Origin: Parcubacteria bacterium C7867-008
GTDB lineage: Bacteria > Patescibacteriota > Minisyncoccia > Phycocordibacterales > Phycocordibacteraceae
Assembly (NCBI GenBank): GCA_001189215.1
Contig: LFCR01000004.1
Coordinates: 313,635 to 377,634 of the forward strand
Direction: 5' to 3'
Length of the DNA: 64,000 bases
Under the pieces are notes generated by a model. The model searched no databases, was not told the DNA's origin, and worked only from the letters and a program-made list of their open reading frames with translations. The translations under genes were made by a program, and so were the position numbers. Shown here piece by piece: positions 2,728-56,619 of the stretch. Within the stretch, counting starts at the first letter, position 1, and each line of letters opens with the position of its first letter.

Positions 2728-2729
2728 GC

Positions 2730-3308: not shown

Positions 3309-3311
3309 AAA

Positions 3312-3653
3312 TTATGTATTTGCTGATAATGATTTCTTCGGTGAATTGAAGAATACGAGCGCGACCACCAGGTCCGCGATGGACCAGAGGAAGTGTCCGA
3401 AGTAGAGAGGGTTAATAGGATTGAAAATGATGGCGATCACAATCATGACAACCATCCACTTTGTATTCTTCTCCTTGTGGTAAAGCCAGGCTGAGTGCGC
3501 TGCTGCTGCGAACACCACTAACTTCAGGAATTGGTAGGCGAAATAAGGCCAGATCGGAATTATCGCAATGAGCAGGAGGATGCCTGCGATCTTTGAGAAG
3601 AGTATTCGGTATTTTATATGCTCAGGGCTGGTCATGGCGTTATGCTCTTTCAA
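3312..3653 (-). CDS. small integral membrane protein
   Basis: 113 aa, 3-4 predicted TM helices; its start overlaps the end of the AAA+ gene. Confidence 0.4.
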   Translation of the reverse strand: MKEHNAMTSPEHIKYRILFSKIAGILLLIAIIPIWPYFAYQFLKLVVFAAAAHSAWLYHKEKNTKWMVVMIVIAIIFNPINPLYFGHFLWSIADLVVALVFFNSPKKSLSANT

Positions 3654-4725: not shown

Positions 4726-4726
4726 A

Positions 4727-5593: not shown

Positions 5594-5597
5594 GTGT

Positions 5598-6311: not shown

Positions 6312-6315
6312 AAAA

Positions 6316-7914: not shown

Positions 7915-7918
7915 GGGT

Positions 7919-29988: not shown

Positions 29989-30373
29989 CGACGCGGTCGA
30001 GGACTATGGAGATTGCCTTTAGGTCCCCGTCCATGGCCTTGCGCGTGAGCTTGTCGGCGATAACGTCGCCTACCGACACCTTTTGCCCGTCTCGCGTGAC
30101 GCCTCCTGCGCTGTCGACCTTGTATCTGATCTTTCCTGCCATGTGTCGGGCACCGAGCGGCTTGCCTGGATTACCTTCGGTGAAGCGGCCATTGACCGGG
30201 TCCCTGCCCGTATTTTCCCCGTATTTACGGTCAGGAGTTGGCGCTTCTAAAGGCCCGGAGTTGGCTTCTCCGGCTTCTACTGACGTTTGCTCCTGCGTGG
30301 CGGCCGGTACGGCCTTGGGAGCCGGGAGCAGGAGGAGCGTCTCTTGCGGTTTTTCATTATTCTTCAGGTTCAT
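29789..30373 (-). CDS. terminase small subunit-like protein
   Basis: Contains the NGRFTEGNPGKPLG motif common in phage small terminase/DUF5681-type proteins. Confidence 0.4.
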   Translation of the reverse strand: MNLKNNEKPQETLLLLPAPKAVPAATQEQTSVEAGEANSGPLEAPTPDRKYGENTGRDPVNGRFTEGNPGKPLGARHMAGKIRYKVDSAGGVTRDGQKVSVGDVIADKLTRKAMDGDLKAISIVLDRVDGKVPLAIEVNPVERQGVREYTPEEQAEFDSLFSRNDKPETESIAEAGNPGGNPGTPESTERSAYE

Positions 30374-31685
30374 GCTCGGTTATGGTCCGGGACCAGGCTT
30401 CCGGCTCGCCATTCCGGACTACCTGCTCTATGCCGGTGAAGTCCACCCATCGCTGCACGATCACGTCGGCGAACTTTGGATCGAGCTCCATTCCCACGCA
30501 GACGCGTCCAGTCTTTTCGCAGGCGATAAGCGTGCTGCCGCTGCCGAGGAATGGGTCGACCACCACGTCTTCTGCTTTCGAGCTGTTCATGAGCGCGTAA
30601 GTGATGAGCTCCACCGGCTTCTGTGTTGGATGTTGGTATTCGTTCACGCGGTCGCGCTTCATCGTCCAGATCGTGAGCTTTCCTTCAGTCTCGAGCTTCT
30701 TCTGCCGCTTCGCCCAGTTGAGGAGTTTCTGCTCGCTGTCGTGGAAGTCGATGATGGTCGAGTGTGTGCGATCGCCGTAGAAGACAGTCTCGGTGCCTTC
30801 CTTCGATGCGTAGAAGAATGGCTCATGCTTCCATCGGTAATCGCCCCAGCCCATCGATGCCGTCGGTTTATTCCAGATGAGTTGGTTTCGGATCGCCATG
30901 CCGAACTTCTTCAGCGCGTTCTCGAATTGCGCTTGCGTTGACGTTGAATGGAAGACGTACCAGCCAGCGCCGGTCTTTGCAGCGTTTGCGATCTGTCGGA
31001 ATGCGTTCTCAAGGAAAGTATCGAACGCCTCCGCATCCATGTGATCGTTCATGATGCCTTCGCTTGTCTTCTTACCGCGTCCCGCATAGTTCACGTTGTA
31101 CGGCGGGTCCGTGAAGACGCAGTCGGCTTTGCGGCCGTTCATTGCCCTGCTCCATGCTTCCTCGTCAGTTGAGTCGCCGCAAACGATCGTGTGTGGACCG
31201 AGCTGATACATGTCGTTCAGCCTGCTCCGCGGCTCGATCGGCGTTTCCGGGACCACGTCGTCCGCTTCATCGTCCTCGAGAATGATGTCGTGGTCGAAGC
31301 CTGTAAGCGTGATGTCGAAGCCAGCAGCGTCGAGCAGCTTCAGTTCGTCCGTGATGAGCATCAGGTCCTGGCCGGTGAGCGCGTTTATCTGGTTGTCGGC
31401 GATGCGATACGCTTTGACCTCGTCTTCGGTTAGGTCGTCGACCAGCACATACGGAATGACCGGCTCGCCTTTCTTCGTGAACGCTTTCTGCTCCATGAGC
31501 GTGTAGCCCAGGAGATCCGTCATGGCGATGAAGCGGCCGTGCCCGACCACTATCACGCCATCTTTATCGAGAATGATCGGCTGCTTGCATCCGAACGCCT
31601 TTATGGAATTGGCGATCTTCTCCAGCTGGAAGTCTGGATGCTCCTTGGCGTTCTTCTCGTACTTTTTTACGTCGGTGATCTGCAT
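30357..31685 (-). CDS. ParB-like nuclease domain / N6-adenine DNA methyltransferase fusion
   Basis: N-terminal ParB/Srx fold (PIILDKDGVIVVGHGRFIA) plus MTase motif IV FTDPPYNV. Confidence 0.8.
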   Translation of the reverse strand: MQITDVKKYEKNAKEHPDFQLEKIANSIKAFGCKQPIILDKDGVIVVGHGRFIAMTDLLGYTLMEQKAFTKKGEPVIPYVLVDDLTEDEVKAYRIADNQINALTGQDLMLITDELKLLDAAGFDITLTGFDHDIILEDDEADDVVPETPIEPRSRLNDMYQLGPHTIVCGDSTDEEAWSRAMNGRKADCVFTDPPYNVNYAGRGKKTSEGIMNDHMDAEAFDTFLENAFRQIANAAKTGAGWYVFHSTSTQAQFENALKKFGMAIRNQLIWNKPTASMGWGDYRWKHEPFFYASKEGTETVFYGDRTHSTIIDFHDSEQKLLNWAKRQKKLETEGKLTIWTMKRDRVNEYQHPTQKPVELITYALMNSSKAEDVVVDPFLGSGSTLIACEKTGRVCVGMELDPKFADVIVQRWVDFTGIEQVVRNGEPEAWSRTITEHEPEE

Positions 31686-32097: not shown

Positions 32098-32487
32098 TTA
32101 ATGGTTATGCTGATGTTCGGTCGCATCCGAGCCGAGGATTTCATTGCAGGTGCTGCATCGCTTGATCCATCGGTGGTGCTCGCATGAGTCGCGCCTTCGT
32201 TCCTGGCCCTGCATCTGAATGAACGCGTAAGTACCGCCGACTCTTTTGTGGTACTGGTCCTTTCGGCGCTCGCGGTAAATCTCCGCAATCTCCTCGGGCA
32301 TCTGTTTCGGCATGAGGGACCGGCGAATCCAGCCGTTGTGTCCCGCGTGGAAACGGACCGCCTTTGGATCGACGCTGAAGAAGCGGGCAATCCAGAGGAT
32401 TTTCCAGCCCTGGTCCTCGTATCGCTTTCGCGCTTCTTCGATCTGCGCGGCATTTAGTTTGTGGCGTGGGTTGTTGGCGTTGAACAT
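32098..32487 (-). CDS. HTH domain protein with C-terminal Cys/His cluster
   Basis: N-terminal LNAAQIEEARKRYEDQG...IARFFSVDPKAVRFH resembles resolvase/sigma-r4-type HTH; C-terminal CEHHRWIKRCSTCNE...HQHNH. Two overlapping Arg-rich ORFs in other frames were rejected. Confidence 0.4.
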   Translation of the reverse strand: MFNANNPRHKLNAAQIEEARKRYEDQGWKILWIARFFSVDPKAVRFHAGHNGWIRRSLMPKQMPEEIAEIYRERRKDQYHKRVGGTYAFIQMQGQERRRDSCEHHRWIKRCSTCNEILGSDATEHQHNH

Positions 32488-32514
32488 TTTTTCTAAGGGT
32501 GTTCAGGACTTTCT

Positions 32515-33087
32515 TCATTGGCCCCCATGCCTGAACCGATTGAGGGACATTTTTTGAGTGAGTTCTCTTTTCAGGACTCCTAAGTTATCCACAGGGTCCC
32601 TAATACTTGGTTTCTCTTTCTTTCCTAGGTTTTGTGTGTTCACTACCTGAACCGATTTCGGTCTACTACCTGAACCGCTTTTGGTACGCCCAGCAGACTG
32701 GTTCACTACCTGAACTACTTTTTCCACATCCATATGCAGGTTTATTTGGTAGTAGTTCCCCTTCGTCGTTCCCCTGATCGAAATCGCTCCCGCCTCATTC
32801 AGACTCTTGAGACCTTTGGCGACCGAGGCACGCGCTAAGCCCGCACCGTAATCGAGCACGTTGCCACGGCGATCTTTTATTCCATCCATGAATTGCGAGA
32901 AGCTGATGCGGTCTGCGTCTTTATGAAATCCGAACGTGCGACGGCAAATGTAAAGAAGACATCGCGCTTCTGCTTCAGGGATAAGGGGAATAACCTTATC
33001 GAGGAGAATGTTTGGTAGCTGTGTGCTGTTTGGTATGAAAGATGTTGTTTTGTGTTCATCCATAGTTTTTTGGAAGAGAAGAAGCAT
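32515..33087 (-). CDS. putative phage replication initiator (winged-helix, lambda O/DnaD-like)
   Basis: The N-terminal region resembles replisome-organiser wHTH; the 3' end of the gene contains iteron repeats. Confidence 0.4.
   Translation of the reverse strand: MLLLFQKTMDEHKTTSFIPNSTQLPNILLDKVIPLIPEAEARCLLYICRRTFGFHKDADRISFSQFMDGIKDRRGNVLDYGAGLARASVAKGLKSLNEAGAISIRGTTKGNYYQINLHMDVEKVVQVVNQSAGRTKSGSGSRPKSVQVVNTQNLGKKEKPSIRDPVDNLGVLKRELTQKMSLNRFRHGGQ
32529..32724. repeat. iteron-like direct repeats (candidate phage ori) inside replication gene
   Basis: ACTACCTGAAC at 32641, 32664 and 32704 (each preceded by TTC/TCT), plus CCTGAACCGATT at 32529. Spacings are 23 and 40 bp. Confidence 0.6.
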
Positions 33088-33187
33088 CGATTGCTCGATG
33101 ATTCTTCCCGGTTAGTCGGGGGCTTCGCCCCTGATCCCAGCCCTCGTACCACTGCGACCAGGGCTGGGTCAGTGGCGAAGCTAGTTA

Positions 33188-35042: not shown

Positions 35043-35528
35043 TTAGCTGCTGAACTCGTCGAGGAGTTTGCGCTCGGCACTCATCAGGATCGTGCTGCCC
35101 TCGCCCAGGCGCTTCTCGGCCAGGATGATCCTGTGCGTCTTGAAGCAATACTGGCCGAGCCTGGATGCCAGGAAGGAGGCAGCTACGTTGATGTCCCCCT
35201 TGAGCCCGATACTCCACTCCGTGACCTGCTCTACAGGCTTCAGGTACTCCTTGTAGTCGTAGATGGTGAGGACGATCATCTTGCCCTTGTGGATGGCCTT
35301 GAAGGCCCACTCGGCTCTGACCTTGCCGTCTCCGGACCGCCAGGGTCCTTCGTTGGTGCAGTCATGCGGCTTCCCGAATGCCTGGACCATGGTTTCGTAG
35401 TCGGCCATCATTTGGCCCCGACCGCCCGACCCCTTTACGTCTGCCCGCCTTGCTTTCACGAACTTAATTTGTGGCTCCATAATCACTTTTGATTGGCTGG
35501 TAAAATCGACCTTTTTGGGTGAGCTCAC
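35043..35528 (-). CDS. hypothetical protein (first gene of phage rightward-end operon)
   Basis: 161-aa ORF with no recognisable domain. Confidence 0.35.
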   Translation of the reverse strand: MSSPKKVDFTSQSKVIMEPQIKFVKARRADVKGSGGRGQMMADYETMVQAFGKPHDCTNEGPWRSGDGKVRAEWAFKAIHKGKMIVLTIYDYKEYLKPVEQVTEWSIGLKGDINVAASFLASRLGQYCFKTHRIILAEKRLGEGSTILMSAERKLLDEFSS

Positions 35529-36643: not shown

Positions 36644-38605
36644 TTACTGGATACGGAACGAACCTCCGAAAATATTAAAAGAACCACGGAAAATATTGAA
36701 TTTTGAATCAGTAATAGGCGAACTATTTATTGCAGGACGTAGTGCGAAGGTTGTCACACCTGGAAGTACTGTGACTCCGTAGTTCCAAGTTACCGATGCT
36801 TGTGTTTGAGAGGTTGAAATAATTTTGTATATAGCGTTCTGAGGTTGGTTAGTTGAAATCTCGTTAAGTCCAACAAACGAATCTCCAGGCATTACAGTTG
36901 CTAGAGTTTGTGTGCCAGTGTCAATAGACGAGACACTGTATACGAGTGCTTTAGCTGTGAGTGTTGTGATAGCAGTGGTTGTTGCGGTAGCACCTCCTGC
37001 ACCCCCTGTATATGAGAAGGTACTGTTTGAAGGAGCAACATCATATTTACTTGTTCGATCAACATCACGGAACGTTGTGCAGATAACAGTCCAACGGTCA
37101 TTCGTGTTCGAGGTGAAATTATATGTGGAAGGTTCAGATCCTCCAGCATAGCGTGAGAATACGTAGACGTTTGCAGTTCCGTAGTTAGGACTCGTATAGT
37201 CTTTTGTGAATGGTGTTGCACCATTGTTATCTGAAAGTACCGCAGAACCACTATTAAAATTGATGGTGGCGATAACAACATCTCCTGATGCAGTACCCGC
37301 AGGTTTCGTACAAGATACCGCAGTACCGGAAGCCGCACTGCCGCTTGTGGTATCTATGACAGTTATGCCAGTAGGTGGTGCAATGAATGTAGCCATACTC
37401 ATCTTCACAAGCGACACCGCCGCCGGAGAGCCGGAGACAGAAGTAACCCAATTCACGAATTGATTGGCGCTGACCGCAATGGTGTTAGCTATATCACTTG
37501 CAGTGGTTGCAGCACTTGTGATAGTCGCACTAAGGGCCTGTGTTGCACCATTAATACGTAAAGCAAAGGTTCGAGTGGTCACACCACCGGGGGCCGCATC
37601 GATACTCGCGTAGATATTCTTCAAACTATAGTCAATACCTACCGTAGTAGAAGAAAGATTCTCAAGAGTGGTGTCCTGAGTAGCACCAACAATGGCATTG
37701 AAGCGGGTGCCGTTGGTGAGTACTGCACCCCGAACCCAAAGCGGAGCCTCGCCATCGGTAGTTGGCTTGTACGCGAAACCATAAAATACCTGACGGGCAG
37801 CGGGAGAGCCGACGGGTTCTGTGTGCACCGAGATTGTATCGCCCGCAGCAAATGATACCGTATGTACTACATCACTACACTGTAGTGTAGAAGCACCGCC
37901 TACATTACAGGTTACGGTCGTAGTAGCACCATTCTTATTTACATAAATATTGTATGACGTTCCAGCACCTGCAGCGAGCGCAAGCTGTCCATACAATTTT
38001 GTTAATGTGCCAGCAACAGGCATAATTGCGGACGAAGATGCTTCTACTGTGAAGGCTGAGCCTCCGTACGGCGGGAAGTAATTATATGCAGTGTTTGAGA
38101 CAATAGTTCCTCCTCCACCAAAACTTACCTCATCAGCAATACCGTGAGTATCAGATGCATTTATAACACCATTACTTGCTGCAGGAGTGCCCGCGGGTAC
38201 CTGCTGCCATGCGAGAAGATCTCCTGGAAGGTACGGGACGGTGTGCGTATTGTCCGCACAGCTACCTGAAGTATCGCTAATCGTGCAAGTAAGTGCGGTG
38301 GCAACGTTGTTACGGTAGAGAGTAATTACGTGAGATTTTCCTGCTCCAGGTGGAGTTACTAGTTGTACGGTGAGATTGCTCACCATGCCAGCACTTGATT
38401 GAGGTAGAGCACCTCCAGCAAAAGCGTTTGAGTTGACCCCAGATGTACCTCCTTCAAATCCAATGTATCGAGTACCGAACTGATTGAATGAAACATTGAT
38501 GGACGAGAAGACGGGTCGTTGCATCGCATACACCCCTAACGGCATTACCAGGAAGGCGACAAGAAAGGATCCTGCAACTCGTTTTGAGAATAAGTCTTGA
38601 AACAT
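36644..38605 (-). CDS. secreted Thr/Ser/Gly-rich surface protein
   Basis: 653 aa with an N-terminal signal/anchor (VAFLVMPLGVYAM) and beta-rich low-complexity composition, immediately downstream of the giant gene. Confidence 0.5.
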   Translation of the reverse strand: MFQDLFSKRVAGSFLVAFLVMPLGVYAMQRPVFSSINVSFNQFGTRYIGFEGGTSGVNSNAFAGGALPQSSAGMVSNLTVQLVTPPGAGKSHVITLYRNNVATALTCTISDTSGSCADNTHTVPYLPGDLLAWQQVPAGTPAASNGVINASDTHGIADEVSFGGGGTIVSNTAYNYFPPYGGSAFTVEASSSAIMPVAGTLTKLYGQLALAAGAGTSYNIYVNKNGATTTVTCNVGGASTLQCSDVVHTVSFAAGDTISVHTEPVGSPAARQVFYGFAYKPTTDGEAPLWVRGAVLTNGTRFNAIVGATQDTTLENLSSTTVGIDYSLKNIYASIDAAPGGVTTRTFALRINGATQALSATITSAATTASDIANTIAVSANQFVNWVTSVSGSPAAVSLVKMSMATFIAPPTGITVIDTTSGSAASGTAVSCTKPAGTASGDVVIATINFNSGSAVLSDNNGATPFTKDYTSPNYGTANVYVFSRYAGGSEPSTYNFTSNTNDRWTVICTTFRDVDRTSKYDVAPSNSTFSYTGGAGGATATTTAITTLTAKALVYSVSSIDTGTQTLATVMPGDSFVGLNEISTNQPQNAIYKIISTSQTQASVTWNYGVTVLPGVTTFALRPAINSSPITDSKFNIFRGSFNIFGGSFRIQ

Positions 38606-38623: not shown

Positions 38624-41600
38624 CTATGACGCAGACAGCACAACCGGAGCTGGAGCTGGTTCCGGTGCTGGAGTAGGAGCTGGTTCCGGTGCTGGAGTAG
38701 GAGCTGGTTCCGGTGCTGGAGTAGGAGTAGGTTCACTTGCTGGTAGCTGTGGTGCGCCCACATGTACCATTCGTGAGACCCCCGCACTCTGCCCTACCCC
38801 ATCCACTACTGAGTAGTTAATGGTATAGAGGCCGCTGGTATTTACATCCACCGTTCCTGTTACCGCAATTTGCGACGTAAGATCATTTCCTTGTGCATCA
38901 GTAGCAGTTGCTCCTGGGTCAGCCCAGTATGCACCCTGTGCAATATCAACGGCTGCGTCACCATTCAATGTAATGGTGGGTGCTCCAGGAACAGACGGTT
39001 CAGGTTCTGTTGGTGTTGGCTCCCCTGCGCTTGGAGTTGGTGGTGTGAACGGTGCAGCAACACTTGCAACCTGTGTTTGTTCCTCTGTCTGAACAATGAA
39101 GTAGTCGAAGGTTACATCTTCAGTCTGTGCTGAAGCAAGCGTGATTGTGAAACTTCCCTCCTGCTTCTCACGGATATACCAGCTACCATTGAGCGGTGAA
39201 GTAATAGTGACGAAGATCTTTGAGCTTGTGTGCATGAGTGGATTCGTCACTATTGTCTCTGTAGTTCCCACTGCAATGGTGCTAGTTGCAACTGATGAAG
39301 TTCCATCAGCAGCTGGAGCAGCAATAAGATTTGTGAACGCGAGCGAGCCAAAGCGTGCAATACCGTTCTGTATCAAGATACCCGCCTGAGCAAGCAGATC
39401 CTTAAGACCAGTAAGTGTAAGTGTTCCTCCAGTACCAGGGGTGCTTGATGCAATTGCCTCCAACATTGCAACACGGAGCTCAACTGCATCAATACGACCT
39501 GCAAGAAGTGCGGTTTGTGCGGTGAGTGATTGTACTCCCGTGATTGCATACGTTGCAGCCTTGTAGAGATCAACTCCTCCTTCTACAAGGATTTCACTCG
39601 GAAGAACACCGGTCGTTGATGCAATGGTGAATGTGATTGGTGTTGCAGGTGCAATAAATCCTGTCGCAAGAGCATTACCTGTAAGCGTAAGGCTTTGCGC
39701 GTTTATGTCGCTTGCTACTAGTGACTTAGGTTCAGACGGTTGTTCAGCATCCGGATGTTCAAGCTTACTGACCCGTGACCCAAGCGTCGTAGTAGACATA
39801 CTGAGAACTTCGAGTCTTCCAGCAAGATCCTTTATTGCGTTCACGCTCGCTGCAAGTATCGGACGATCGGAGAGACTCAAGTATCCCTGCGGACCAAGAT
39901 CTACAGCTTCTGGGATTACACTCTGGACGTTCTGTGCACTGAAACCAGCGTACAGCGTTGAACGGTCAAGACTACTTGTCGCATTCCAGTGGTAGAGAAT
40001 TGGATTAAGACCCTGTATTTCGGCAAGACCACGAGTGAACAAACCGTTTATATCCTTAAGACGTTCATCAGACGATACGGATAGGTTTCCGAGTGAATCT
40101 GTCTGCAATGTTCCTGCGCCGAAGGTTGCAAATCGTACTGACCCACTGGTACTGAGTTGAGCAGTAGGAGTAGTGGTACCGACGCCTATATTGCCTCCGT
40201 TACCGACCATGAAGTAGGTGCTTCCTGTTGACGTACCTACCGCAAAGATTGAAGAAGCACTATCTACCGTACTTACATTGAAGGTTGTTGAACCAACTGA
40301 GTTCTCAATGGCGAACGCATCTGAAACATCAGTTGTTGTCTTAAAACGAACACCTGCTGCACCAGAAACACTTAGTAGCCAGTTTGGTGTAGTAGTACCA
40401 ATACCTAGACGGCCGTTGGTGTTGTCCCATTTAAGAATACTTGCTCCCGAGTTTGCTGCCTGAGTGAGTTTGCTACCATCACTGAATACAATCCCGCCGT
40501 TATAGAAGGTTGTCGTAGCGGTACCACCACTTGCAAGTGTGTTGGTAAAGGAGGATCCAGTTGAAAGGCACACTCCGTTCATTGCGAAACAACCGGAAGT
40601 TAGGTTGATTCCTCCACTGCTATAAAAGGTTGATGTTGCAGTCGTAAAGTTGGCGATACCAGCGATAGAGAGAAGTGAACCAGGTGTTGTTGTACCAATA
40701 CCAACACTACCTCCATTACTGACCAAGAAACTTGTTGCAGATGATGAACCGACAACAAATGCTGGGGCTGTACCAATTGCATTTGGATTAACAGAGAAGG
40801 ATCCCCATGGCGTAGTACTTGAAATACCGACATTTCCGGTATTACCGAGAACCGAGATACGTGTAGTGCTATTCGCGCCAATACTTACTCCGCTTGATGT
40901 ACCTCCAGCCGAAATAACAATCTCACGATCATTGGTTTCGGTAATAAGACCGAATTGTGAACTGTTTGTGTACAACCTACCTGCGGTATTGCCTCCCGTA
41001 AGTCGAAGCTCGTTACCGGTATTTCCAGTCGGGTCATGTATCACGAGTGTTGCGCGACCCGCCGTACCAGGAGCAGGTGTAGCGGTGCCTATACCAACAT
41101 AGCCACTATTGGTAACAATGAACTTTACTCCAGTACTAGACCCAATTACAAAAGAAGGCGCTGTACCGTCTGCTGCGCTTGGATTTACTGATAGGCGTCC
41201 CCATGGTGATGAACTACCTACACCAGTAAATCCTTCGATAATGGCACCATTTGTTGGGGCGGTAATTCCTGCATAGGTTGCACCCAGGCCGAGGTTTCCT
41301 AATACGTTGAGACTTGAATTGGTCGCATTGGTATTAATACTGAACCCAGCGCTATTTACTTGTGCAGTACCAGTTGTACCCACGGTGCCATTAGCGCGGA
41401 AAACGATACGTCCAGAAGTTGGAGTCTGGAAGTAAAGATTACTATCACCTCCTCCAAAGAAACCAACCATGGTTGAGTCACCAAGACTGCCGTTTAGACT
41501 AATCGCTCCGTATGAAGGTGCACCCGCATCCACACCAAAGACGATTGGGTTTGATGCTCCAACTGTGTATTGAGTCATCTGACCATTCGCGTCAACCTTT

Positions 41601-44600
41601 AGATATGAACGTGTTGAAGAACCAATAACAAATGCGGGAGCACTACCCAGTGCTGCAGTTGGATTAATTGAGAGTAGTGCGGTTGGAGTTGACGTGCCAA
41701 GTCCAAGACGAGTGTTTGATTCACTCCAGAAAAAGTTTGCAGCAGCTGATGATTGGGTCAGCTTAGTACCATCAGAGAAGACCACGCCACCGTTGTAGAA
41801 CGATGTTGTAGCTGTACCTCCTGCCGCAAGTGTATTTGAGAATGAGCCTGCACCAACACAGGTGCCATTGATTGCGAAACAACCAGCAGTTAGGTTGATA
41901 CCTCCGGTTGAAGAGAAGCCGATGGCAAATGAAGGTACAGACCCGTATGTTGCGAGGGGATTGATTGAGAGCTGCGCCCACGGCGTGGAAGATGCAATAC
42001 CTACGTTACCTCGAAGATCACCATTTGCAGTAACTCCAAGGAGTACGTTACCGTCACGACCACCAATACCTCCCGATCCAACGGCACCACCTGCAAGGAA
42101 TACGTCCCCACCGTTACCGGCAGAACCTCCATTGTATGGACCTCCATCACCAGCAGTGAATAGCAGAGCACCTCCATCACCTCCACCAAATATGCCATCA
42201 TCCCCACCTCCTTTACCTGCATTGAGGATGATTCGCCCTCCGGTTCCTGCGATGTCAAAAAGTTCTACAAACTGCGAAGCATCATCAGCATACACCACGA
42301 GTCCATCTAAACCATTACCAGTGCTTGCTTCGCGTCCAGCAATAGAAAGGATACCCATCGGGGAACTTGTACCTACGCCTATCTTTCCGATAGGAGTGAG
42401 ACTCAAACCGCTACTAAAATCTCTAATGAAATTAAATTGACCGTTATCAAGACTAAATTGAGCAACACCATTGTTAAACTGTTTAAGATTTGCTGTGGCA
42501 AGAGCACCCGCAAACGTACTGGTGGCAGCAGTATTTGTTGCAGAGAAGAATGAGCCTACGACCTCACCTGCCACAGAAAGCCTTGCGTATGGAGATGATG
42601 TACCAATACCAAGATTCTTAGTGCTCTCACTCCAGAAGAAGTTTGCAGCGGATGCGGATTGCGTAAGCTTCGAACCATCACTGAACACTACCCCACCATT
42701 GTAGAAGGTGGTGGTTCCAGTACCGCCTGCCGCAAGTGTATTTGAGAATGAGCCTGCACCAACACAGGTGCCATTGATTGCGAAACAACCAGCAGTTAGG
42801 TTGATACCTCCGGTTGAAGAGAAGACAGGGTTAATTGATAGACGTCCCCACGGGGTTGAGGTACCGAGACCGAGGAACTTATTTGATTCACTCCAGAAGA
42901 AGTTGGCTGGGTCAGAAGATTGGGTAAGTTTTGTACCATCGCTGAATACGACACCACCGTTGTAGAACGTAGTGGTTGCAGTACCCCCATTTGCTAGAGT
43001 ATTGGAGAATGAACTACCTCCCACGCAAGTACCATTAATTGCAAAGCAGCCTGACGTTAGGTTGATACCTCCGGTTGAAGAGAAGGTTGAGGTTGCGGTA
43101 CTGAAGTTAGCAATACCTTGTATTGAGAGGAGTGAACCGGGTGTTGAGGTACCTATACCTACGAGTCCTGCGTTTGTGACTACAAAGTTAGTTGCCGTTG
43201 AAGATCCGATTACAAACGCAGGAGAAGTGCCGTTGCTTGCAATTGGGTTAATTGATAGACGCCCCCAAGGAGTGGTTGTTGCAACACCAACAGAACCTCC
43301 AAAATAGTTCTTGTTTGTTACAGAAGATGCATATACGCCGTATGTTGCACCTGTCACGTTTATACCTGCTCCGATAACAGAGTCACTAAGTATTGCATTG
43401 TTAGTTCCATCTGTAGCACTAAGTCCAACACCACTGCTCACATCAGCAATATCAATAGTATAAGGAGAGCTGGTGATGCGAACGGCACGATTCACTTGTG
43501 CAGGATCAGCATTAACAAGGAGTGCGGTCGTGTTTGGTAGGAAGGAAAGGGTACCTGATGTGTTTGAAAGACTAGCACCTTGAGCAACAACAAAGCCTGA
43601 AACGTATGCACTACCCCCAACTGAAAGTGTTGAGCCAGGGGTTGAGGTTCCGATACCAACGCGTCCTGCGCTAGTAACTAGGAAACTTGTTGCGGTTGAC
43701 GAACCAATACTAAATGCTGGAGCCGTGCCATTTGCAGCTGTTGGATTAATTGAAAGCTGAGCCCATGGTGTTGTTGAACCGACACCGACAAAACCATTAC
43801 CTGCCACCATGAAATCAGTCTTCGTGGAAGATCCGACTACAAATGAAGGTCGTGTACCGTTACCACTCTGGTTTATAGAGACCATTCCCCATGGTGATGT
43901 TGTTCCAAAGCCTGCCTGAATGGTGTTAAGTGCTGCCGTGCCTGATCCAGCTAAGGTAAGGGTCGGTATACCGGTGCCTGCGTTGTTGTCGATACCAATG
44001 TTTATTTTTGTGTTGAAGTTAGAGCGGATAGCTAGATCATTTTGTGCAGCACCCACAAACCATGAGTTCGCCGCACCAGAAAGAGCGAGTGCTGTCGTGT
44101 TAATGCCGGAACGAGCCAGCTTGATCGCAGGACTAAAGTTTGTGCCAGTCTGGGTTATAAGCAGACCGTCTCCTTCAATCGCGGTACTTATATTGAGCTT
44201 TGCTGCTGGAAACGCTGTTCCTATACCGACATTCGTAGTTGATGCAACGACGAAGCTTGTGCCAGTTGAAGATCCAATGGCAAACGCTGGTGCAGTAGCA
44301 TTCGTTGCCGTTGGGTTAATAGAAAGCTGTGCCCATGGCGTCGAGGTACCTAGACCAACATTTCCGTTATAGAGCGCTGTGAAGATCGGTGCCGTGCTTG
44401 TGGCGTTATTAATAGAAAGAATAGAAACATTCTGTGATTTCGTTGTTGAGGCGCTGAACGATGAGAAACCGTTTACGTTCAGACCGCTTCCGGCATTGAG
44501 ACTTCCCCATGCGTAAATGTCTCCATTCGCTGTAATGTTCTCGGTTACATTAAGGACGTTCGTAGCAATGTTCCCGGCGTAAAGCGAAGGCACTTCGGTG

Positions 44601-47600
44601 CCATTGATGTCGACAATCTGAAGGCCTGAGGAAGCATCCGCAACATACGCATACTTTCCAGAAACATAGACATCGGCAGTAGAACCTGAGGTATCAAAAG
44701 TCCCAATAAGCACCGGGGATGCGGCGTTCGAAATGTCGACGACTTGAACTCCATCCGCGCCATCTGCGACATACGCGTACTTTCCGGAAACGTAGACACC
44801 GCCCGCAGCTCCCGTGGTGTTATAGGTGCCAGCGAGTGAAGGCGCAACAGGGTTCGAGATGTCGACAATCTGAAGGCCTGAGGAAGCATCCGCAACATAC
44901 GCATACTTTCCAGAAACATAGACGGCTGCTGCAAATCCCGTGGTGTTATAGGTGCCAGCGAGTGAAGGCGCAACAGGGTTCGAGATGTCGATTATTTGGA
45001 GACCAGCAGTATCATCAGCGACATACGCATACTTTCCAGAAACGTATACATCCGTGGCGAAGCCTGTGGTATTAAACGTTCCAGCAAGCGTAGGTGACGC
45101 CGGATTCGATATGTCGATGACCAAGAGACCAGCTGAGTTATAACCAACATACGCGTACTTTCCGGAAACGTAGACACCGCTGGGAATGTCTACGCCAATG
45201 TAGGATCCCACAAGTGTAGGTGACGTTGGGTTCGAGATATCGATGACCTTGAGTGCCCCAGTATCATCAGTAATATAGGCGTACTTTCCTGAAACATAGA
45301 CATCGGCAATAAATGCCCCGCTGCTATACGTGCCAGCAAGCGTAGGTGACGCCGGATTCGATATATCGATGATTTGGAGTCCTCCAGAATCATCGGCGAC
45401 ATACGCATACTTTCCTGAGACTTGCACACCAAAGGACTGGCCTGGCGTGTCGTATGTTCCCATCAGCGTCGGATTCCCAAAAGCAGTCTGGATGAAGTTC
45501 CCTCCTGCGAGCGCGAGCTTAGCGAATGGACTTGATGTACCAATACCAACAAGTCCCGCATTTGTAACAACAAAGTTTGTTGCTGATGAAGAACCTATTG
45601 CAAACGATGGCGCCAAACCATTTGCTGCTGTTGGGTTAATAGAAAGCTGTGCCCAAGGTGTGGTTGAGGCAAGAGCAACGGTTGAGGTGAAGTTGTTTGC
45701 AGCACCCCAGGTATTTGCGGTGGTAGTACCGAATGCGAGAGAAAGAATGTTTGAAGAGAGTTGGATTGGATAGGTTGCAGTGAGAGGTGCTTGGTAATCG
45801 GTGCCGGATACTGCAACTGAGAGAAGACCGTTAGTTGATTTAACAAGACCACTGCCAAGACCATCGATTGTCGCCGTTCCATGAACAAGGAAGTTGCCTT
45901 CAACAGACAGTGCTGCAGACGGTGAGGTTGTTGCAATACCAAGGAAACCTGATGAGTTGAATCGTGCACGTTCAATACCCGACGTAGTGAAGCCGATTGT
46001 ATTTGCACCAGCGTGGAAGATACCCGTACCGAGGTCTGACGCCCACGTAAACGATGGTGCTGATGCGCCATCTGCGTTAAGACCAATGAATTGTGATCCT
46101 GTAGTGATGGAACCAGTCGTGTTGATAGTGGTTGCCGTAAGTCCCCCGTTGAAATCTTGGAGTTGGCTCCATTGGTTGGCAGTCGTAGTACCAAATGCGA
46201 GTGATACGTTGGTTCCAGAAAGTTGAAGTGGGTATGAGAAAGAGAGTGTATTGCCACCGACACAAGTTCCGTTTACCGCAAAACATCCATTGGTTAGGTT
46301 GATGCCTCCCGTTGAAGAGAATGTTGACGTTGCGTTAGTGAAGTTAACAATACCTTCTATGGAGAGGAGTGAGCCTGGAGTGGTGGTACCTATGCCAACA
46401 TTTCCATTGTTAAGGATATTAAACAGTGTTGTTGTTGCAGTTAACGTTGAAGATCCTATTGCAAAAAGGGTCTTATCTGTTGAGCCAGTATTTGCGTGTA
46501 TTGAGAGTTTTGCATAGGGCGAGCTACTGGCAATACCAATCTGTCCAGTAGTTGCATCTAAGAATGAAGTTGCACTTGTTGTTGCAGGAAGCGTACCGAA
46601 AAGCAGGTTGCCAATATTGAGTTGATTATTTGCTGTTGCACTTGCAAAACGCGTATTGAAACCAATCCCAATATTGTTTCCTCCCGTAGTAATGTAGCCA
46701 GTGCCACTAGTACCTGACTGAGTTCCCAGGAATGTGTTGTCGCCACCGGTAGTAATTGCACCACCAGCTCGAACACCCACCGCAGTATTGTTAGATCCTG
46801 ACAACAAATTCGTCATGGCAAATACACCAAATGCAGAGTTAGCTGCTCCCGTGGTATTTGAACTTAGTGCCGTTGCCCCGAACGCACTGTTATTTGACGC
46901 GGTTGTGTTTGAACCGAGAGCGCTGGTACCAATTGCCTGGTTGCGTATTCCTGTTGTGTTTGAACCGAGAGCGCTGCCCCCAATCGCAATGTTGTTATTT
47001 CCCGTCGTGTTGGTTGAAAGTGCCAGGGTACCAATCCCAATATTAAATGCACCTGAGTTTGCACCAAGCGTGCTTGAACCAAAACCTGCATTGTTTCCTA
47101 TATACACGCCATCACTTGCTGTTGCGCCATATCCAGCACCGGTACCCAGGAAGACGTTGCGTGCACCTGTGGTCTTTGTTGGTGATCCGTTTGCACCAAG
47201 CCCACCAAAGAAGTTACTGGTACCTAGTACCGAGATAGTTGTTGAACCCTGATAACTCAACAGGTTTGTGTTGCTGTCTACATTGAAGCCGCCTGTTGCT
47301 GTGGTGGTGCCTACAACGGATAGCGTCTGGTACGGGGTAGTAGTTCCAAGACCGAGTCGTGCATTTGATTCACTCCAGAAGAAGTTAGCAGCAGCTGATG
47401 ACTGGGTCAGCTTGGTGCCATCAGAGAACACTACACCGCCATTGTAGAACGTAGTGGTTCCCGTGCCACCACTTCCAAGACCGAGCGTTCCTCCAAGAGA
47501 ACTTAATGAAAGACAGGTTCCATTTATTGCGTAGCAGCCAGCTGCGAGATTTAGTCCACCAGTTGAGTAGAATGTTGAAGTTGCAGTGGTGAAGTTAGCA

Positions 47601-50600
47601 ATACCACCTACAGACAGAAGTGAGCCAGGTGAGGTTGTTCCGACACCAAAGAATCCAGATGAGTTGAAACGGCCTCGTTCAATACCACTGGTACTAAATC
47701 CAATGGTGTTGGCAGACCCATGGAAGATACCTGTACCCAAGTCACTTCCCCATGTAAATGATGGTGCGGACGCACTATCACCACTTAGACCAATGAACTG
47801 TGAACCGGTAGTGATGGAACCAGTCGTGTTGATAGTTGTTGCCGTAAGGCCTCCATTAAAGTCTTGGAGTTGGCTCCATTGATTAGCAGTGGTGGTACCA
47901 AACGCAAGTGATACGTTAGTTCCAGAAAGTTGAAGTGGGTATGCGAATGAGAGTGTATTGCCACCAATACATGAACCGTTAATTGCGAAACATCCATTCG
48001 TGAGGTTAATACCGCCTGATGATTGGAACGTTGAGGTTGCAGTGGTGAAGTTTGCGATTCCTTGTATTGAGAGGAGTGAACCAGGAGTTGAGGTACCGAT
48101 ACCAACATTTCCGTTATTGAGGATATTAAACAGAGTTGTTGTGGCGGTAGGTGAACTAGAGCCAATAGTGAAGAGATTGGTATTTGTTTCTCCACTGTTT
48201 GCATGGATGGAGAGTTTTGAGAATGGTGAAGAAGTACCAATGCCAACGTTACCGTTATAGAGCGCAGTAAATATTGGCGCAGAACTTGTCGCGTTGCTTA
48301 CTGAAAGTACTGAGATGTTCTGTGCACGAGATGTAGATGCATTAAATGTAGAGAAACCATTTACATTGAGACCATTTCCAGCCATGATAGTCCCCCATGC
48401 TGAAATATTTCCTCCAGAGAAAATGTTGTCGGTTGCGTTAAGTACGTTTGTTGCAATGTTTCCTGCCGTAAGTGCCGGTACATCAACGCCGTTGATATCA
48501 ATGATCTGAAGCCCCGCAGAAAGATCACCAACATACGCATACTTGCCGACGACAGTTACACCATATGCGGTACCTGATGTGTCATACGTACCCACAAGTA
48601 ATGGTTGTGCAGGATTGGTAACATCAAGTACCTGGAGACCCGAACTACCATCTCCAACATACGCATACCTTCCAGCAACAAAGATGCTGTGTGCAGTACC
48701 AGCAGTATCAAAGCTACCAACAGACGTTACTGATGCTGGGTTTGAGATATTAACGATTTGAACGCTTGCGAAAGGAGAACCTCCGTCTGAAATGTATGCG
48801 TACTTCCCAACCACCGTCACATCTTCAGCAATCCATGGGGTGTCATAGGTACTAACTAGTCTTGGATTTGCAGGGCTTGAAATATCAATGACGCGCAAAC
48901 CGCTGAAATCGTCTGCAACGTATGCATACTTACCAGCAATAGAGATGCCGCTTGGTGCTGAGAGGCCAGAAAGGAATCCGACACCGACTGGAGCAGTTGG
49001 GTTTGAAATATCAATCACGACGACATTTGCCCCTGTGCCATCAGTAACATACGCATACCTACCCACTATCGCAACACCATTGTAATCAAAAGCGCTAATA
49101 CTGTAGTTTCCTACCAGTGCTGGAGCCGTTGGATTTGAGATATCGATAACCTGAAGACCGCTTCCCGAGTCTGCGATGTACGCGTATTTACCTGAGATAG
49201 CAATTGCACCAGCGACACCAGGAGTGTCGTACGTACCTACAAGAACAGGTAGTGCAGGGTTTGAAACATCGATAATCTGAAGGCCGCTACCCGCATCTGC
49301 GACGTAAGCGTAACTACCTATAACTTGTGCAACTACAGCAGAACCTGCTGTGTTGTATGTTCCAAGTAGGGTTGGATTTCCAACAGCAGTCTGCACAAAG
49401 TTTCCTCCTGCAAGCGCAAACTTCGCAAATGGCGATGTTGTACCGATACCAACACGTCCTGCATTTGAAACAATAAAGCTTGTTGCTGACGAAGAACCAA
49501 CAACAAACGCTGGTGCGGTGCCGAGGGTTGCTATTGGATTAACAGAGAGTTGTGCCCATGGTGTTGACGTACCGACACCGAAATTACCCGTGCTACTCAC
49601 TCTCGCCTTTTCAGAACCACTTACATAAAATACGTGACTACCTGAGACTGGCACTATGTAATCAAGCTGACTTCCGCTAACGCCCAAACCAAATACCGTA
49701 GAGCCATCGTCATACAATTTGAGCTTTGGATTGTTACCCGCTGAGCTAGAGAAGGTACCACCCAAAGATACTACGACCGGACTGGCAGTTGACTGACTTG
49801 TCTGAGAGCCTATTTGTAGATTCGATTGTGGGTTTGTTGTACCAATTCCAACATTTCCTGCATTTGAAACAATGAAGCTTGTTGCTGACGAAGATCCAAC
49901 AACAAACGCTGGTGCGGTACCGAGCGTTGCTATTGGATTAACCGAGAGTTGTGCCCATGGTGTTGTAGAAGCAACACCCACACGTCCAGCGTTGAGTATC
50001 GAAACTAACGTGGTTGGACTCGCAGCAATGCCACTCTGAAAATTGAAATTTCCAGTAGCAGCACGGAAATTCACGTTTCCATTTGATCCATCATTATAGA
50101 ACCCAAAACCATTTGCGCCGGCGTCTGCTGTACGGTTCGAAGAGTTATAGTAGAAACCTGCAGTACTGGATGTATCGTTTTTAAAGACTACGATTGAGTG
50201 CGCTGTTGCACCTGCGCTTGAATTTTGGAAACTAAGTGGTGCAAATTGACCGCTGACTGATGTTGCAACTGTGAAGGTGTCAGTAGTATATATTTTTCCA
50301 TCGACGGAAAAGCGCTGTGCGGGTGTTGTGGTTCCTATACCCACATATCCTGAGTTTGATACTAGGAAGCTTGTTGCAGAGGACGAGCCGATTACGAATG
50401 CTGGTGATGTACCGAGAGTAGCTGTTGGGTTAATTGAGAGCTGTGCCCACGGTGTTGAAGTTCCGAGACCAAGGAATTTGTTTGATTCACTCCAGAAGAA
50501 GTTTGCTGCTGCAGAAGACTGTGTGAGTTTTGTACCGTCACTGAATACAACACCTCCGTTATAGAAGGTGGTTGTTCCTGTACCACCACTTCCAAGTCCA

Positions 50601-55864: not shown

Positions 55865-56619
55865 GTCGGATATCCGAATTAACTAAATTCTATCGCACTA
55901 ATTCAGAATCTCTTCACTTTTATTTGTGGATAAAATTTACTATTTCCTCATGAACGTTTTTTAAGAAATTAATAGTGAATTCGGATACTGAAAAGTAATG
56001 AATTTTGATTCAAAATAGTTGCATCTAGCTCTTAGACTACCGTTAATTTTAAATTCTTTGAGAAGATTTAAATTTCTCGACCTAAAATCAAGCAATGCAG
56101 GTGGCAATTTCAGAAAGTCTCTACTGACATTCAGTACATCTATCCGCACAAATTGAACGCAATGAGCGAATTTGTAGAATAAGTTGTCAAAGTGTTTAAA
56201 ACGATGACTAGATTGCACTATTTAATCTAATTATTCATTTCCTGCACATATTTTATATATAGTGGTCGAGTATCCGATATACCTAGTATTTACTTACTAT
56301 TTTAATAATACTTATTTCCTATTAATCTTTTTGTTTAATAGCAGATAGCTTACTTGAAATACTCTGTGTCCAAACGAGACTGACACGAACTGCATATCTA
56401 TATGGAAATATATAAGTCTCATCTATAAATTCCTTTGCGTCGAGTATTTATACCTATGTATACGTTTAAATTGCTTAGAACGCATTTAAATGCCTTGTTT
56501 ATTCTTTAGTATAGGCAAAAACTCACTTATACGTGCAACATTAGTTTCTATAAATGAAAACTGCGCCTCATATTGGCGCAGTTTTCATTTATTTTTTGCC
56601 GAGATAACTATTCCTTTAT
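55865..56619. promoter_or_regulatory. 755-bp AT-rich non-coding leader/promoter region of the giant gene
   Basis: No credible ORF. Contains a 12-bp palindrome TCGGATATCCGA abutting the start codon, and a GTATCCGA(A/T) motif three times (55866, 55978 inverted, 56269). Confidence 0.5.
56556..56597. terminator. bidirectional intrinsic terminator
   Basis: GAAAACTGCGCC-tcatatt-GGCGCAGTTTTC perfect 12-bp stem followed by ATTTATTTTTT; it lies 23 nt past the stop of the 56620-57621 gene. Confidence 0.75.

What the first reader, a model, noticed from the sequence alone, without database searches (positions are those of the whole stretch)
32515..33087. Lambda-style origin: iterons embedded in the 3' part of the replication-initiator gene
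Three copies of (T)TCACTACCTGAAC plus a fourth partial CCTGAACCGATT lie within 32529-32724, inside the coding 3' end of a winged-helix protein gene. The adjacent downstream region is AT-richer. This mirrors the arrangement in phage lambda, where the O-protein iterons lie within the O gene. It predicts the replication origin of the element and the DNA-binding specificity of the 190-aa protein.
Basis: partly seen in the sequence, partly recalled or inferred. Interest (0 to 1): 0.55.

Follow-up and report, generated by a model that had tools for sequence, protein, structure and literature searches.

The report
Lambda-type origin inside initiator gene
A prophage in a Parcubacteria (candidate-phyla-radiation) genome carries a phage-lambda-style replication origin inside its own initiator gene: four initiator binding sites, an A-rich stretch and two flanking host DnaA boxes. 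It is a recognisable relative of a textbook system with a plasmid-like twist.

Summary
ORF 32515-33087 (-), probable start 33063, encodes a Phage_rep_O / "O-like" winged-helix protein. They are spaced 17-23-23 nt and so fall in three reading frames.

In 81 non-redundant relatives from CPR phages and prophages:
- The four slots keep exactly this register.
- The arms covary to preserve the dyad (GTTCA/TGAAC, GTCTA/TAGAC, GTTCG/CGAAC, GTTAA/TTAAC), change in concert in all slots, and track residues of the predicted recognition helix.
- Synonymous sites are far more conserved in the origin (0.74) than in the DNA-binding domain (0.40).

The array starts at nucleotide 348 of the gene, as in lambda O. 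As in lambda, it is followed at once by an A-rich sense-strand block beginning ACACAAAA.

It differs from lambda in three ways. The protein lacks a C-terminal domain, no P-like loader is encoded nearby, and DnaA boxes flank the array. These are two of only three TTWTNCACA matches in the 64 kb window.

Verdict: a lambda-type origin with plasmid-like DnaA boxes, a new variant of a known kind. Function is inferred, not shown.

The parts
32515..33063 (-). O-like replication initiator gene, 182 aa from M9. The mechanical ORF extends to 33087, giving 190 aa.
   Evidence: ORF list. Pfam PF04492 Phage_rep_O E 9.4e-8, above the gathering cutoff. PHROG 678 'replication initiation O-like' 9e-18. Identical 182-aa protein P0001 in the database. 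The stop is real: the closest relative L013 has TAA at the same codon.
32740..33024 (-). Coding region of the winged-helix DNA-binding domain (Phage_rep_O match, residues 22-116 of the 190-aa ORF).
   Evidence: Pfam match coordinates. In the AlphaFold2 model, 10-residue block mean pLDDT is about 80-93 over residues 21-120, with helix-turn-helix plus beta wing. Foldseek returns only generic winged-helix proteins: CodY, MarR, SmtB, Orc/Cdt1 WH.
32791..32832 (-). Predicted recognition helix (residues 78-91 of the 182-aa protein). Residues 77-79 (A-R-A) track iteron class.
   Evidence: Helix H78-91 in the model. ARA(S) goes with GTTCA arms (31/31 loci), SRQ with GTCTA (21/21), SRP with GTTAA/GTAAA (24/24), ARS with GTTCG/GTCCA (4/4). 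The association is confounded by shared ancestry.
32720..32728 (-). Upstream DnaA-box-like site. Gene-sense TGTGGAAAA = TTTTCCACA on the + strand. It fits the relaxed consensus TTWTNCACA and lies 13 nt 5' of slot 1.
   Evidence: The same position holds a perfect TGTGGATAA in 55 of 81 relatives, and a relaxed box in 57 of 59 short-form relatives. The Val codon inside it is GTG in 100% of Val-Val pairs, against about 0.3 codon identity for Val codons in the domain.
32701..32715 (-). Iteron slot 1, GTTCAGGTAGTGAAC (perfect 5-bp dyad arms), reading frame 0, gene offset 348.
32684..32698 (-). Iteron slot 2, GTCTGCTGGGCGTAC. Degenerate in this element (3 of 5 dyad pairs), frame 2, gene offset 365.
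   Evidence: Identified by register with relatives, where the slot reads e.g. GTTCAGCAGCCGAAC or GTTAAGAGAGTTAAC.
32661..32675 (-). Iteron slot 3, GTTCAGGTAGTAGAC, frame 1, gene offset 388.
32638..32652 (-). Iteron slot 4, GTTCAGGTAGTGAAC (perfect dyad), frame 0, gene offset 411.
32605..32637 (-). A-rich, purine-rich sense-strand block (ACACAAAACCTAGGAAAGAAAGAGAAACCAAGT). Candidate DNA unwinding element.
   Evidence: The 34-bp stretch 32604-32637 is 35% GC with 26 of 34 purines on the sense strand. It is nearly invariant across relatives, including synonymous sites: codon identity 0.8-1.0 for codons 143-153. Lambda has ACACAAAAGACAC...AAAAGAAAAAAGAAAAG at the same place and polarity.
32585..32593 (-). 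Perfect DnaA box (TTATCCACA on the + strand, TGTGGATAA on the gene-sense strand), 122 nt 3' of the start of slot 1.
   Evidence: One of two perfect boxes in 64 kb. Only three TTWTNCACA matches exist in the window, and two of them flank the iterons. 47 of 59 short-form relatives have a perfect box here, in either orientation (30 forward, 17 inverted, coding different peptides). 54 of 59 have a relaxed box. 0 of 19 long forms have one.
32530..32541 (-). Membership doubtful.
   Evidence: 12-nt identity to the slot 4 left arm plus flank. No right arm. GTTCAGG is kept only in the closest relative L013. The inverted CCTGAAC at 32501-07 is not conserved.

Best explanation
This is the vegetative replication origin of a roughly 25-33 kb temperate phage integrated in a Parcubacteria chromosome. 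It is built on the phage-lambda plan and sits inside the initiator gene.

Proposed mechanism:
1. The 182-aa O-like protein binds as dimers, through its N-terminal winged-helix domain, to four 15-bp dyad-symmetric iterons (GTTCA-N5-TGAAC). These lie in the part of its own gene that encodes a disordered tail.
2. The resulting nucleoprotein complex destabilises the adjacent conserved A-rich block, the candidate unwinding element.
3. The protein has no lambda-O-type C-terminal domain and the phage encodes no P-like loader or helicase. The two host DnaA boxes bracketing the array are therefore proposed to bring in DnaA, and through it the host helicase, as in iteron plasmids.
4. All genes are co-oriented, so transcription of the early operon runs through the origin. 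This could activate it, as pR transcription does in lambda.

Shown here: homology of the protein, the anatomy, and DNA-level purifying selection and covariation of every element.

Inferred: binding, dimer stoichiometry, melting site, DnaA dependence, transcriptional activation.
For: Protein:
- Phage_rep_O is above Pfam's cutoff.
- Best PHROG is 678 'O-like', shared with lambda O.
- BLASTP to lambda O gives 36% identity over the core helix region, E 2e-5.
- The AF2 model shows a confident wHTH. The tail residues 129-160 have pLDDT below 50; they are encoded by slots 3-4 and the A-rich block, and the stretch ends at the DnaA box.

Iterons:
- Enrichment in the window.
- In 81 non-redundant relatives the 78-nt array is ungapped with fixed 17-23-23 spacing.
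- Dyad pairs average 4.1-4.6 of 5 per slot, against 1.28 in control 15-mers.
- Arm positions 3/13, 4/12 and 5/11 show compensatory types TA/CG/AT, AT/CG/TA and AT/GC. Inner-arm complementarity is 2.27, against 1.41 in shuffles (maximum 1.65 of 2000).
- Arms of different slots are more alike within a locus (0.825) than between loci (0.687).
- Slots fall in frames 0, 2, 1, 0.
- Iteron class tracks the recognition-helix residues.

DNA-level selection: synonymous codon identity is 0.40 in codons 8-100 and 0.74 in codons 108-150.

Lambda register: same gene offsets, same order, same ACACAAAA start of the A-rich block. Lambda's origin anatomy is taken from PMC7466680 and PMC5043065.

DnaA boxes.

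Context: the gene sits in a phage early/replication module next to a Sak4/AAA_24 protein, a ParB-methylase, terminase and portal. Relatives occur on 30-40 kb IMG/VR viral contigs.
Against: - No experiment of any kind: binding, melting and replication are all inferred.
- The 'AT-rich' block is only moderately AT-rich (35% GC over 34 bp, 41% over 44 bp), against 23% GC in lambda.
- Slot 2 is degenerate, and the upstream DnaA box has one mismatch to the strict consensus in this particular element.
- There is no GC-skew inflection at the site.
- No helicase, loader or primase gene was found, so the downstream steps are conjecture.
- The DnaA-box consensus of Parcubacteria DnaA was not verified.
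- The helix-iteron association is confounded by phylogeny.
- The prophage may be cryptic: no integrase or att sites were identified.
- JGI annotates some relatives as 'transcriptional regulator'.
Confidence: 0.78

Rival explanations
1. The winged-helix protein is a transcriptional regulator. The dyad repeats are operators, for example for autoregulation or a roadblock inside the early operon, and not a replication origin.
For: The fold is a generic wHTH shared with CodY, MarR and SmtB repressors. Dyad-symmetric sites are typical operators. JGI names some relatives 'predicted transcriptional regulator' or 'biotin operon repressor'.
Against: There is specific Phage_rep_O / O-like PHROG homology shared with lambda O. 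The site array has the same gene offsets as lambda's iterons and is followed by the same kind of A-rich block. Flanking DnaA boxes are conserved as DNA. Operators normally overlap promoters, not the 3' half of the regulator's own ORF. No copies of the site occur elsewhere in the window.
Confidence: 0.08
2. The origin architecture is real for the phage family, but this copy is a decayed, non-functional relic in a cryptic prophage.
For: Slot 2 is degenerate (3 of 5 dyad pairs, arms unlike the other slots), and the 5' DnaA box deviates from TGTGGATAA. No integrase or att repeat was found.
Against: The ORF is intact. An identical protein is seen in another dataset, and the closest relative L013 shares the same slot-2 variant (GTCTGCTGGCCGTAC), so the variant is inherited and not fresh decay. 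Ten of 81 loci share the TGTGGAAAA variant, which still fits TTWTNCACA. Structural genes (terminase, portal, endolysin) are long intact ORFs. According to literature quoted in PMC7466680, lambda needs only the two iterons nearest the AT-rich region in vitro.
Confidence: 0.12
3. The inverted repeats act as RNA or single-stranded-DNA hairpins (5-bp stem, 5-nt loop), for example in mRNA stability or translation, and not as protein binding sites.
For: Arm covariation preserves base-pairing potential, which a hairpin model also predicts.
Against: All four slots in a locus carry the same arm sequence and switch together between loci; independent hairpins would have no reason to do this. Non-Watson-Crick cells show no strand-consistent G-U bias (TG 19 / CA 3 at pair 3, but CA 20 / TG 3 at pair 4). 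Arm class tracks the recognition helix. There is no Rfam match. Five-bp stems are marginal.
Confidence: 0.03
4. The repeats are a by-product of a repeated peptide (VQVVN ... VQVVN) in the protein.
For: Slots 1 and 4 are in the same frame and both encode VQVVN.
Against: Slots 2 and 3 are in the other two frames and encode unrelated residues. Synonymous positions are conserved. Dyad symmetry and its covariation have no meaning at protein level. Slots 3-4 encode residues with pLDDT below 50.
Confidence: 0.01

Closest known systems
Phage lambda ori-lambda and O protein (lambdoid phages, including Stx phages with six iterons)
   Same: - N-terminal Phage_rep_O winged-helix domain.
- Origin inside the initiator gene, immediately after the domain-coding part.
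- Four iterons with internal dyad symmetry and a 5-nt spacer. Lambda iteron 1 reads TCCCTC-AAAAC-GAGGGA.
- Near-identical gene offsets: 348/368/392/415 in lambda, 348/365/388/411 here.
- An A-rich sense-strand block starting ACACAAAA right after iteron 4.
- Iterons fall in several reading frames.
- Published anatomy: PMC7466680, PMC5043065.
   Different: - The protein stops about 44 codons after the last iteron and has no lambda-O C-terminal domain.
- No P-like loader gene is nearby.
- Arms are 5 bp, not 6, and of unrelated sequence.
- Two DnaA boxes bracket the array, whereas the 1.2-kb lambda O region has no TTWTNCACA match.
- The A-rich block is less AT-rich.
- The host is a CPR bacterium.
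Iteron-plasmid origins with DnaA boxes (P1 oriR/RepA, R6K gamma ori/pi, pSC101, RK2 oriV)
   Same: An array of initiator sites plus an A+T-rich region plus host DnaA binding sites. In R6K gamma and wild-type P1 the DnaA sites bound the origin (PMC5043065). Helicase is recruited through host DnaA and not through a phage loader; here that is inferred.
   Different: Plasmid iterons are direct repeats bound by monomers of Rep_3-type two-winged-helix initiators, and they lie outside the rep gene. Here the sites are dyad-symmetric, the protein is Phage_rep_O (no Rep_3 hit), and the origin is inside the gene.
Temperate phages of Firmicutes with the origin inside the replication gene (SPP1 G38P/oriL; lactococcal TP901-1, Tuc2009). 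Recalled from memory, not checked here.
   Same: Repeats bound by the initiator lie within its own coding sequence, with an adjacent AT-rich stretch.
   Different: Those phages encode their own loader and/or helicase. No flanking DnaA boxes are known to me. Sequence relationship to this family was not tested.

Membership tests
Lambda-type origin / O initiator | Initiator with an N-terminal Phage_rep_O (PF04492) winged-helix DNA-binding domain. | tested here: met
   PF04492 scores 32.9 bits against a cutoff of 28.7. PHROG 678 is shared with lambda O. The AF2 model shows a wHTH.
Lambda-type origin / O initiator | Origin located inside the initiator gene, just 3' of the domain-coding part. | tested here: met
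   The first slot is at gene offset 348 (codon 117). Lambda iteron 1 is also at offset 348, and the lambda domain ends at residue 115.
Lambda-type origin / O initiator | About four iterons, each an inverted repeat suited to an initiator dimer. | tested here: met
   Four slots are fixed in 81 of 82 relatives, with 4.1-4.6 of 5 dyad pairs. In this window there are three good slots and one degenerate slot.
Lambda-type origin / O initiator | A+T-rich unwinding region adjacent to the last iteron. | tested here: inconclusive
   A conserved A-rich, purine-skewed block lies at 32605-37. It is 35% GC (34 bp, 32604-37), against 23% in lambda. Conservation at synonymous sites supports function. Melting was not tested.
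Lambda-type origin / O initiator | C-terminal domain of O that recruits the P-DnaB complex. | tested here: not met
   The protein ends 44 codons after slot 4. There is no similarity to the lambda O C-terminal half. About 290-aa relatives have an unrelated C-terminal domain.
Lambda-type origin / O initiator | P-like helicase loader gene next to O. | tested here: not met
   The two downstream ORFs tested (129 and 135 aa) have no Pfam or PHROG hit; beyond them lie a ParB-methylase and a DUF5681 protein. No loader or helicase was recognised by eye among ORFs within +/-3 kb of seven long-form loci.
Lambda-type origin / O initiator | Initiator binds the iterons and the fragment supports replication. 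| not testable with these tools
   Only indirect support: iteron arms covary with recognition-helix residues.
Iteron plasmid origins (Rep_3-type) | Rep_3 / two-winged-helix monomeric initiator binding directly repeated iterons. | tested here: not met
   No Rep_3 hit; the only Pfam family is Phage_rep_O. The sites are dyad-symmetric.
Iteron plasmid origins (Rep_3-type) | Host DnaA boxes within or bounding the origin. | tested here: met
   TTATCCACA at 32585-93 and TTTTCCACA at 32720-28. These are two of three TTWTNCACA matches in 64 kb. They are conserved in 57/59 and 54/59 short-form relatives, against 4/59 in the N-terminal coding control.

The most novel reading that the evidence does not exclude
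A widespread family of CPR (Patescibacteria) phages uses a 'minimal lambda' replicon. It is an O-type initiator reduced to its DNA-binding domain plus a disordered tail. Helicase recruitment has been handed over to host DnaA, through two DnaA boxes that, together with four initiator sites in three reading frames and the unwinding element, are all written into about 145 bp of the initiator's own coding sequence.

Relatives that keep a C-terminal domain lack the 3' DnaA box (0 of 19, against 47 of 59) and carry a covarying GC-rich palindrome there instead. This suggests two interchangeable solutions to helicase loading. If so, the roughly 0.7-kb gene plus origin would be a self-contained replicon usable as a vector backbone for CPR bacteria.
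Probability: 0.35. Interest if true: 0.6.

Novelty: new variant of a known kind. Interest (0 to 1): 0.42.

Why it matters
1. It pins down, to the base pair, a testable replication origin and its cognate initiator for phages of Patescibacteria. This host group has few genetic tools. A compact gene-plus-origin cassette is an obvious candidate vector replicon.
2. The family supplies a natural specificity table. At least four iteron classes are paired with changes at two or three recognition-helix residues, so the DNA-recognition code of O-type initiators could be tested by residue swaps.
3. It is a clean example of overlapping codes. A protein tail, four protein-binding dyads in three frames, an unwinding element and two host-factor boxes share one stretch of DNA, with measurable suppression of synonymous change.
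4. The same gene offsets and the same ACACAAAA junction in lambda and in CPR phages suggest the gene-plus-origin module is an ancient, co-inherited unit.

None of this overturns current understanding.

Tried and rejected
- Stop-codon read-through or fusion with the next ORF. ORF 32098-32487 is in the same frame, with two TGA codons between. Rejected: the closest relative has TAA at the stop, and the downstream protein is a separate gene elsewhere in relatives.
- A half-site at the start codon (TGAACACAAAAC) as an autoregulatory operator. It does not covary with iteron class across loci.
Not conserved.
- GC skew as origin evidence. Cumulative skew is flat across 23-36 kb; the local swings reflect composition.
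- Similar DNA in 50,697 GenBank phage records: none.
- Solved structures by sequence: nothing below E 0.1. Foldseek against the PDB: only generic winged helices, E > 0.01.
- Rfam families across 31.0-35.6 kb: none credible.
- Sigma-70 promoter and terminator scan: nothing above shuffles.
- Host oriC at about 56 kb (AT-rich, one DnaA box, skew switch). The neighbours are not dnaA/dnaN and there is only one box.
- att repeats between the two ends of the high-GC region: none of 13 nt or longer.
- C-terminal domain of the long-form relatives compared with the lambda O C-terminus: no similarity.

Full report
**Observation**

The + strand at 32638-32715 holds three copies of a 13-15-nt unit.
- TCACTACCTGAAC occurs at 32640 and 32703 (exact) and at 32663 (one mismatch).
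- At up to two mismatches the window has 10 hits against 2.1 expected, and no shuffle reaches 10.

Read on the gene-sense (-) strand the unit is a 15-mer with 5-bp inverted arms, GTTCA-N5-TGAAC. The only two perfect instances in 64 kb are here.

All copies lie in ORF 32515..33087 (-), 190 aa. A 100%-identical database protein starts at the ninth codon (33063), giving 182 aa. GC falls to 0.40 in 32550-32649, against about 0.54 for the surrounding element.

**The protein**

- It matches Pfam Phage_rep_O above the curated cutoff: 32.9 bits against 28.7, residues 22-116.
- Its best PHROG is 678, 'replication initiation O-like', 9e-18. Lambda O also hits this family.
- BLASTP against lambda O aligns the conserved core at 36% identity, E 2e-5.
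- AlphaFold2 with a 34-sequence alignment gives a confident winged-helix domain, with a helix at 78-91 in the recognition position. Residues 129-160 have pLDDT below 50.
- Foldseek finds only generic winged-helix proteins, and no close solved structure exists by sequence.

**Context**

The window is a chromosome segment of a Parcubacteria MAG: GatB is 100% identical to 'Parcubacteria bacterium C7867'. The flanks carry host genes GAPDH, GatB and Obg.

A higher-GC, co-oriented block carries these phage genes:
- endolysin
- portal
- large terminase
- a ParB-methylase
- a Sak4/AAA_24 protein
- the O-like gene

More than 190 homologues exist, nearly all from Patescibacteria metagenomes. I retrieved 117 loci, many on 30-40 kb IMG/VR viral contigs. 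Of these, 82 have distinct complete genes.

**What the relatives show**

The 78-nt stretch is ungapped in 81 of 82 genes. It contains four slots, not three, at offsets 0, 17, 40 and 63.

- **Dyad symmetry.** Each slot keeps it: mean 4.1-4.6 of 5 complementary arm pairs, against 1.28 for control 15-mers in the same genes.
- **Arm covariation.** The arms differ between lineages but stay complementary: GTTCA/TGAAC, GTCTA/TAGAC, GTTCG/CGAAC, GTTAA/TTAAC. Inner-arm complementarity is 2.27 against 1.41 in shuffles, maximum 1.65 of 2000.
- **Concerted change.** All slots of a locus change together: arm identity between different slots is 0.825 within loci and 0.687 between loci.
- **Reading frames.** The slots fall in frames 0, 2, 1, 0. 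This excludes a peptide repeat.
- **Synonymous conservation.** Among pairs below 75% protein identity, codon identity is 0.40 in the DNA-binding domain and 0.74 across codons 108-150. It is close to 1.0 in the block that follows slot 4.
- **Recognition helix.** Arm class tracks residues 77-79: ARA with GTTCA, SRQ with GTCTA, SRP with GTTAA/GTAAA, ARS with GTTCG/GTCCA, with no exceptions in 80 loci. This fits specific recognition but is confounded by common descent.

**Comparison with lambda**

The annotated lambda record places iterons 1-4 at 39034, 39054, 39078 and 39101 in an O gene starting at 38686. These are gene offsets 348, 368, 392 and 415. The Phage_rep_O domain ends at residue 115.

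Here the slots start at offsets 348, 365, 388 and 411. Lambda iteron 1 reads TCCCTC-AAAAC-GAGGGA, also two arms around a 5-nt spacer.

In both phages the last iteron is followed directly by ACACAAAA and a purine-rich, A-rich sense strand. In lambda it is 23% GC over 43 nt; here it is 41% over 44 nt and 35% over the core 34 nt.

Published descriptions of ori-lambda agree: four inverted-repeat iterons for O dimers, then a roughly 40-bp A+T-rich region, inside O (PMC7466680; PMC5043065). The whole gene-plus-origin module therefore looks homologous, not merely analogous.

**Differences from lambda**

1. The protein ends 44 codons after slot 4. It lacks any counterpart of the lambda O C-terminal half.
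2. No P-like loader, helicase or primase was found nearby. The two ORFs just downstream have no Pfam or PHROG hit. I recognised none by eye among the neighbouring ORFs of seven long-form relatives.
3. DnaA boxes bracket the array.
   - A perfect TTATCCACA lies at 32585-93 and TTTTCCACA at 32720-28.
   - These are two of only three matches to TTWTNCACA in the whole window.
   - The 1.2-kb lambda O region has none.

In relatives:
- The 5' box is perfect in 55 of 81 loci, always 13 nt before slot 1.
- Among 59 short-form genes, 57 have a relaxed box upstream and 54 downstream. The comparison figure is 4 in 18.7 kb of N-terminal coding sequence.
- The 3' box survives indels and occurs in either orientation: 30 forward, and 17 inverted as TTATCCACA encoding a different peptide. 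This argues for selection on DNA.

The 19 long-form relatives (about 290 aa, with an unrelated C-terminal domain) never have the 3' box. By eye, several carry a covarying GC-rich palindrome there. DnaA sites bounding an iteron origin are a feature of plasmids such as R6K gamma and P1 (PMC5043065).

**Mechanism proposed**

1. Dimers of the O-like protein occupy the four dyads.
2. The complex strains the adjacent A-rich block.
3. DnaA bound at the flanking boxes helps opening and brings the host helicase. This substitutes for the missing O C-terminal domain and P.
4. Read-through transcription of the co-oriented early operon may activate the origin.

Only the anatomy, homology and selection are shown. 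Every biochemical step is inferred.

**Rivals**

- An operator array for a repressor. This is disfavoured by the lambda register, the A-rich block and the DnaA boxes.
- A decayed relic. This remains possible, but the slot-2 variant is shared with the nearest relative and the ORFs are intact.
- RNA or ssDNA hairpins. These are disfavoured by the concerted identity of the arms, the lack of strand-consistent wobble, and no Rfam hit.
- A peptide repeat. This is excluded by the frames.

The copy at 32530-41 is a genuine 12-nt match to slot 4's left half plus flank. It lacks a right arm and is conserved only in the closest relative. I do not count it as part of the origin.

**Verdict**

This is a lambda-type origin in register with ori-lambda, in a CPR prophage. 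Its two family-wide departures are a truncated initiator with no loader, and flanking DnaA boxes. Together these make it a new variant of a known kind. Interest is moderate.

Noticed in passing
window 33076-33109 (-), just 5' of the O start codon: Conserved extended hairpin: purine tract, CATCGA, loop, TCGATG, pyrimidine tract. Sequence GGGAAGAAT-CATCGA-GCAA-TCGATG-C-TTCTTCTC, -18.5 kcal/mol. It is present in most relatives. The central stem covaries (CATCGA/TCGATG, CACCGA/TCGGTG, GCCGCC/GGCGC). Possible roles are attenuator, terminator or translational control of the initiator. If the ORF started at 33087 it would begin inside this hairpin.
   Followed up: partly
related loci L005, L031, L079, L083, L085, L111, L113; about 110-140 nt after slot 1: Long-form (about 290 aa) relatives lack the 3' DnaA box. 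At that place they carry a GC-rich palindrome whose arms covary: GCAGTCA.TGACTGC, GCCGAC-AAA-GTCGGC, GCGGAC..GTCCGC. From memory, lambda also has a palindrome to the right of its AT-rich region.
   Followed up: partly
related loci (e.g. L020, L027, L035, L044, L056), 1.25-2.6 kb upstream of the iterons; window homologue 35043-35528: A third perfect DnaA box (CTTGTGGATAA, encoding ELVDK) is conserved at synonymous positions inside an upstream early gene in about 18 loci. In all, 23 perfect same-strand boxes lie outside the origin, against 1.4 expected. The window's copy of that gene lacks the box.
   Followed up: partly
window 55865-56620: A 750-bp intergenic region at about 35% GC, with the window's only other perfect DnaA box (55925-33, - strand). 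The sign of the GC skew changes near 56 kb. The flanking genes are a 5746-aa ORF and an HTH_17 protein, not dnaA/dnaN, so this is probably not oriC.
   Followed up: partly
window 38624-55864 (-): A single 5746-aa ORF, followed at 36644-38605 by a 653-aa Ser/Thr/Gly-rich ORF. These look like giant surface-type proteins, which from memory are typical of CPR genomes.
   Followed up: no
window 1891-10432 (-): The far-left part of the higher-GC block encodes an S49 / head-maturation-protease-like protein, an AAA ATPase and an 837-aa HSP70-like protein. It is unclear whether these are phage cargo, a defence island or host genes. No integrase or att repeats were found, so the prophage borders are not defined. 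The right end is probably about 35.55 kb, at a hairpin before GAPDH.
   Followed up: partly
window 32488-32517 and ORF 32098-32487 (-): The O stop (TGA) and the next ORF are in the same frame, with a second in-frame TGA between them. Both TGAs fall in or next to CCTGAAC-type motifs. The closest relative has TAA at the stop, so this is a real stop and not a recoding signal.
   Followed up: yes
window 33115-33185: GC-rich nested inverted repeats lie between the Sak4-like gene and the O gene: GCTTCGCCCCTGATCC / GGGTCAGTGGCGAAGC, and CCCAGCCCTCGT / ACCAGGGCTGGG. Relatives have a GGGGGCTAAGCCCCC hairpin at the same place. This is possibly a terminator without a T-run.
   Followed up: no
window 30357-31685 (-): A fusion of a ParB-like N-terminal domain with an N6/N4 DNA methyltransferase lies downstream of the replication module. 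It is conserved in relatives.
   Followed up: no
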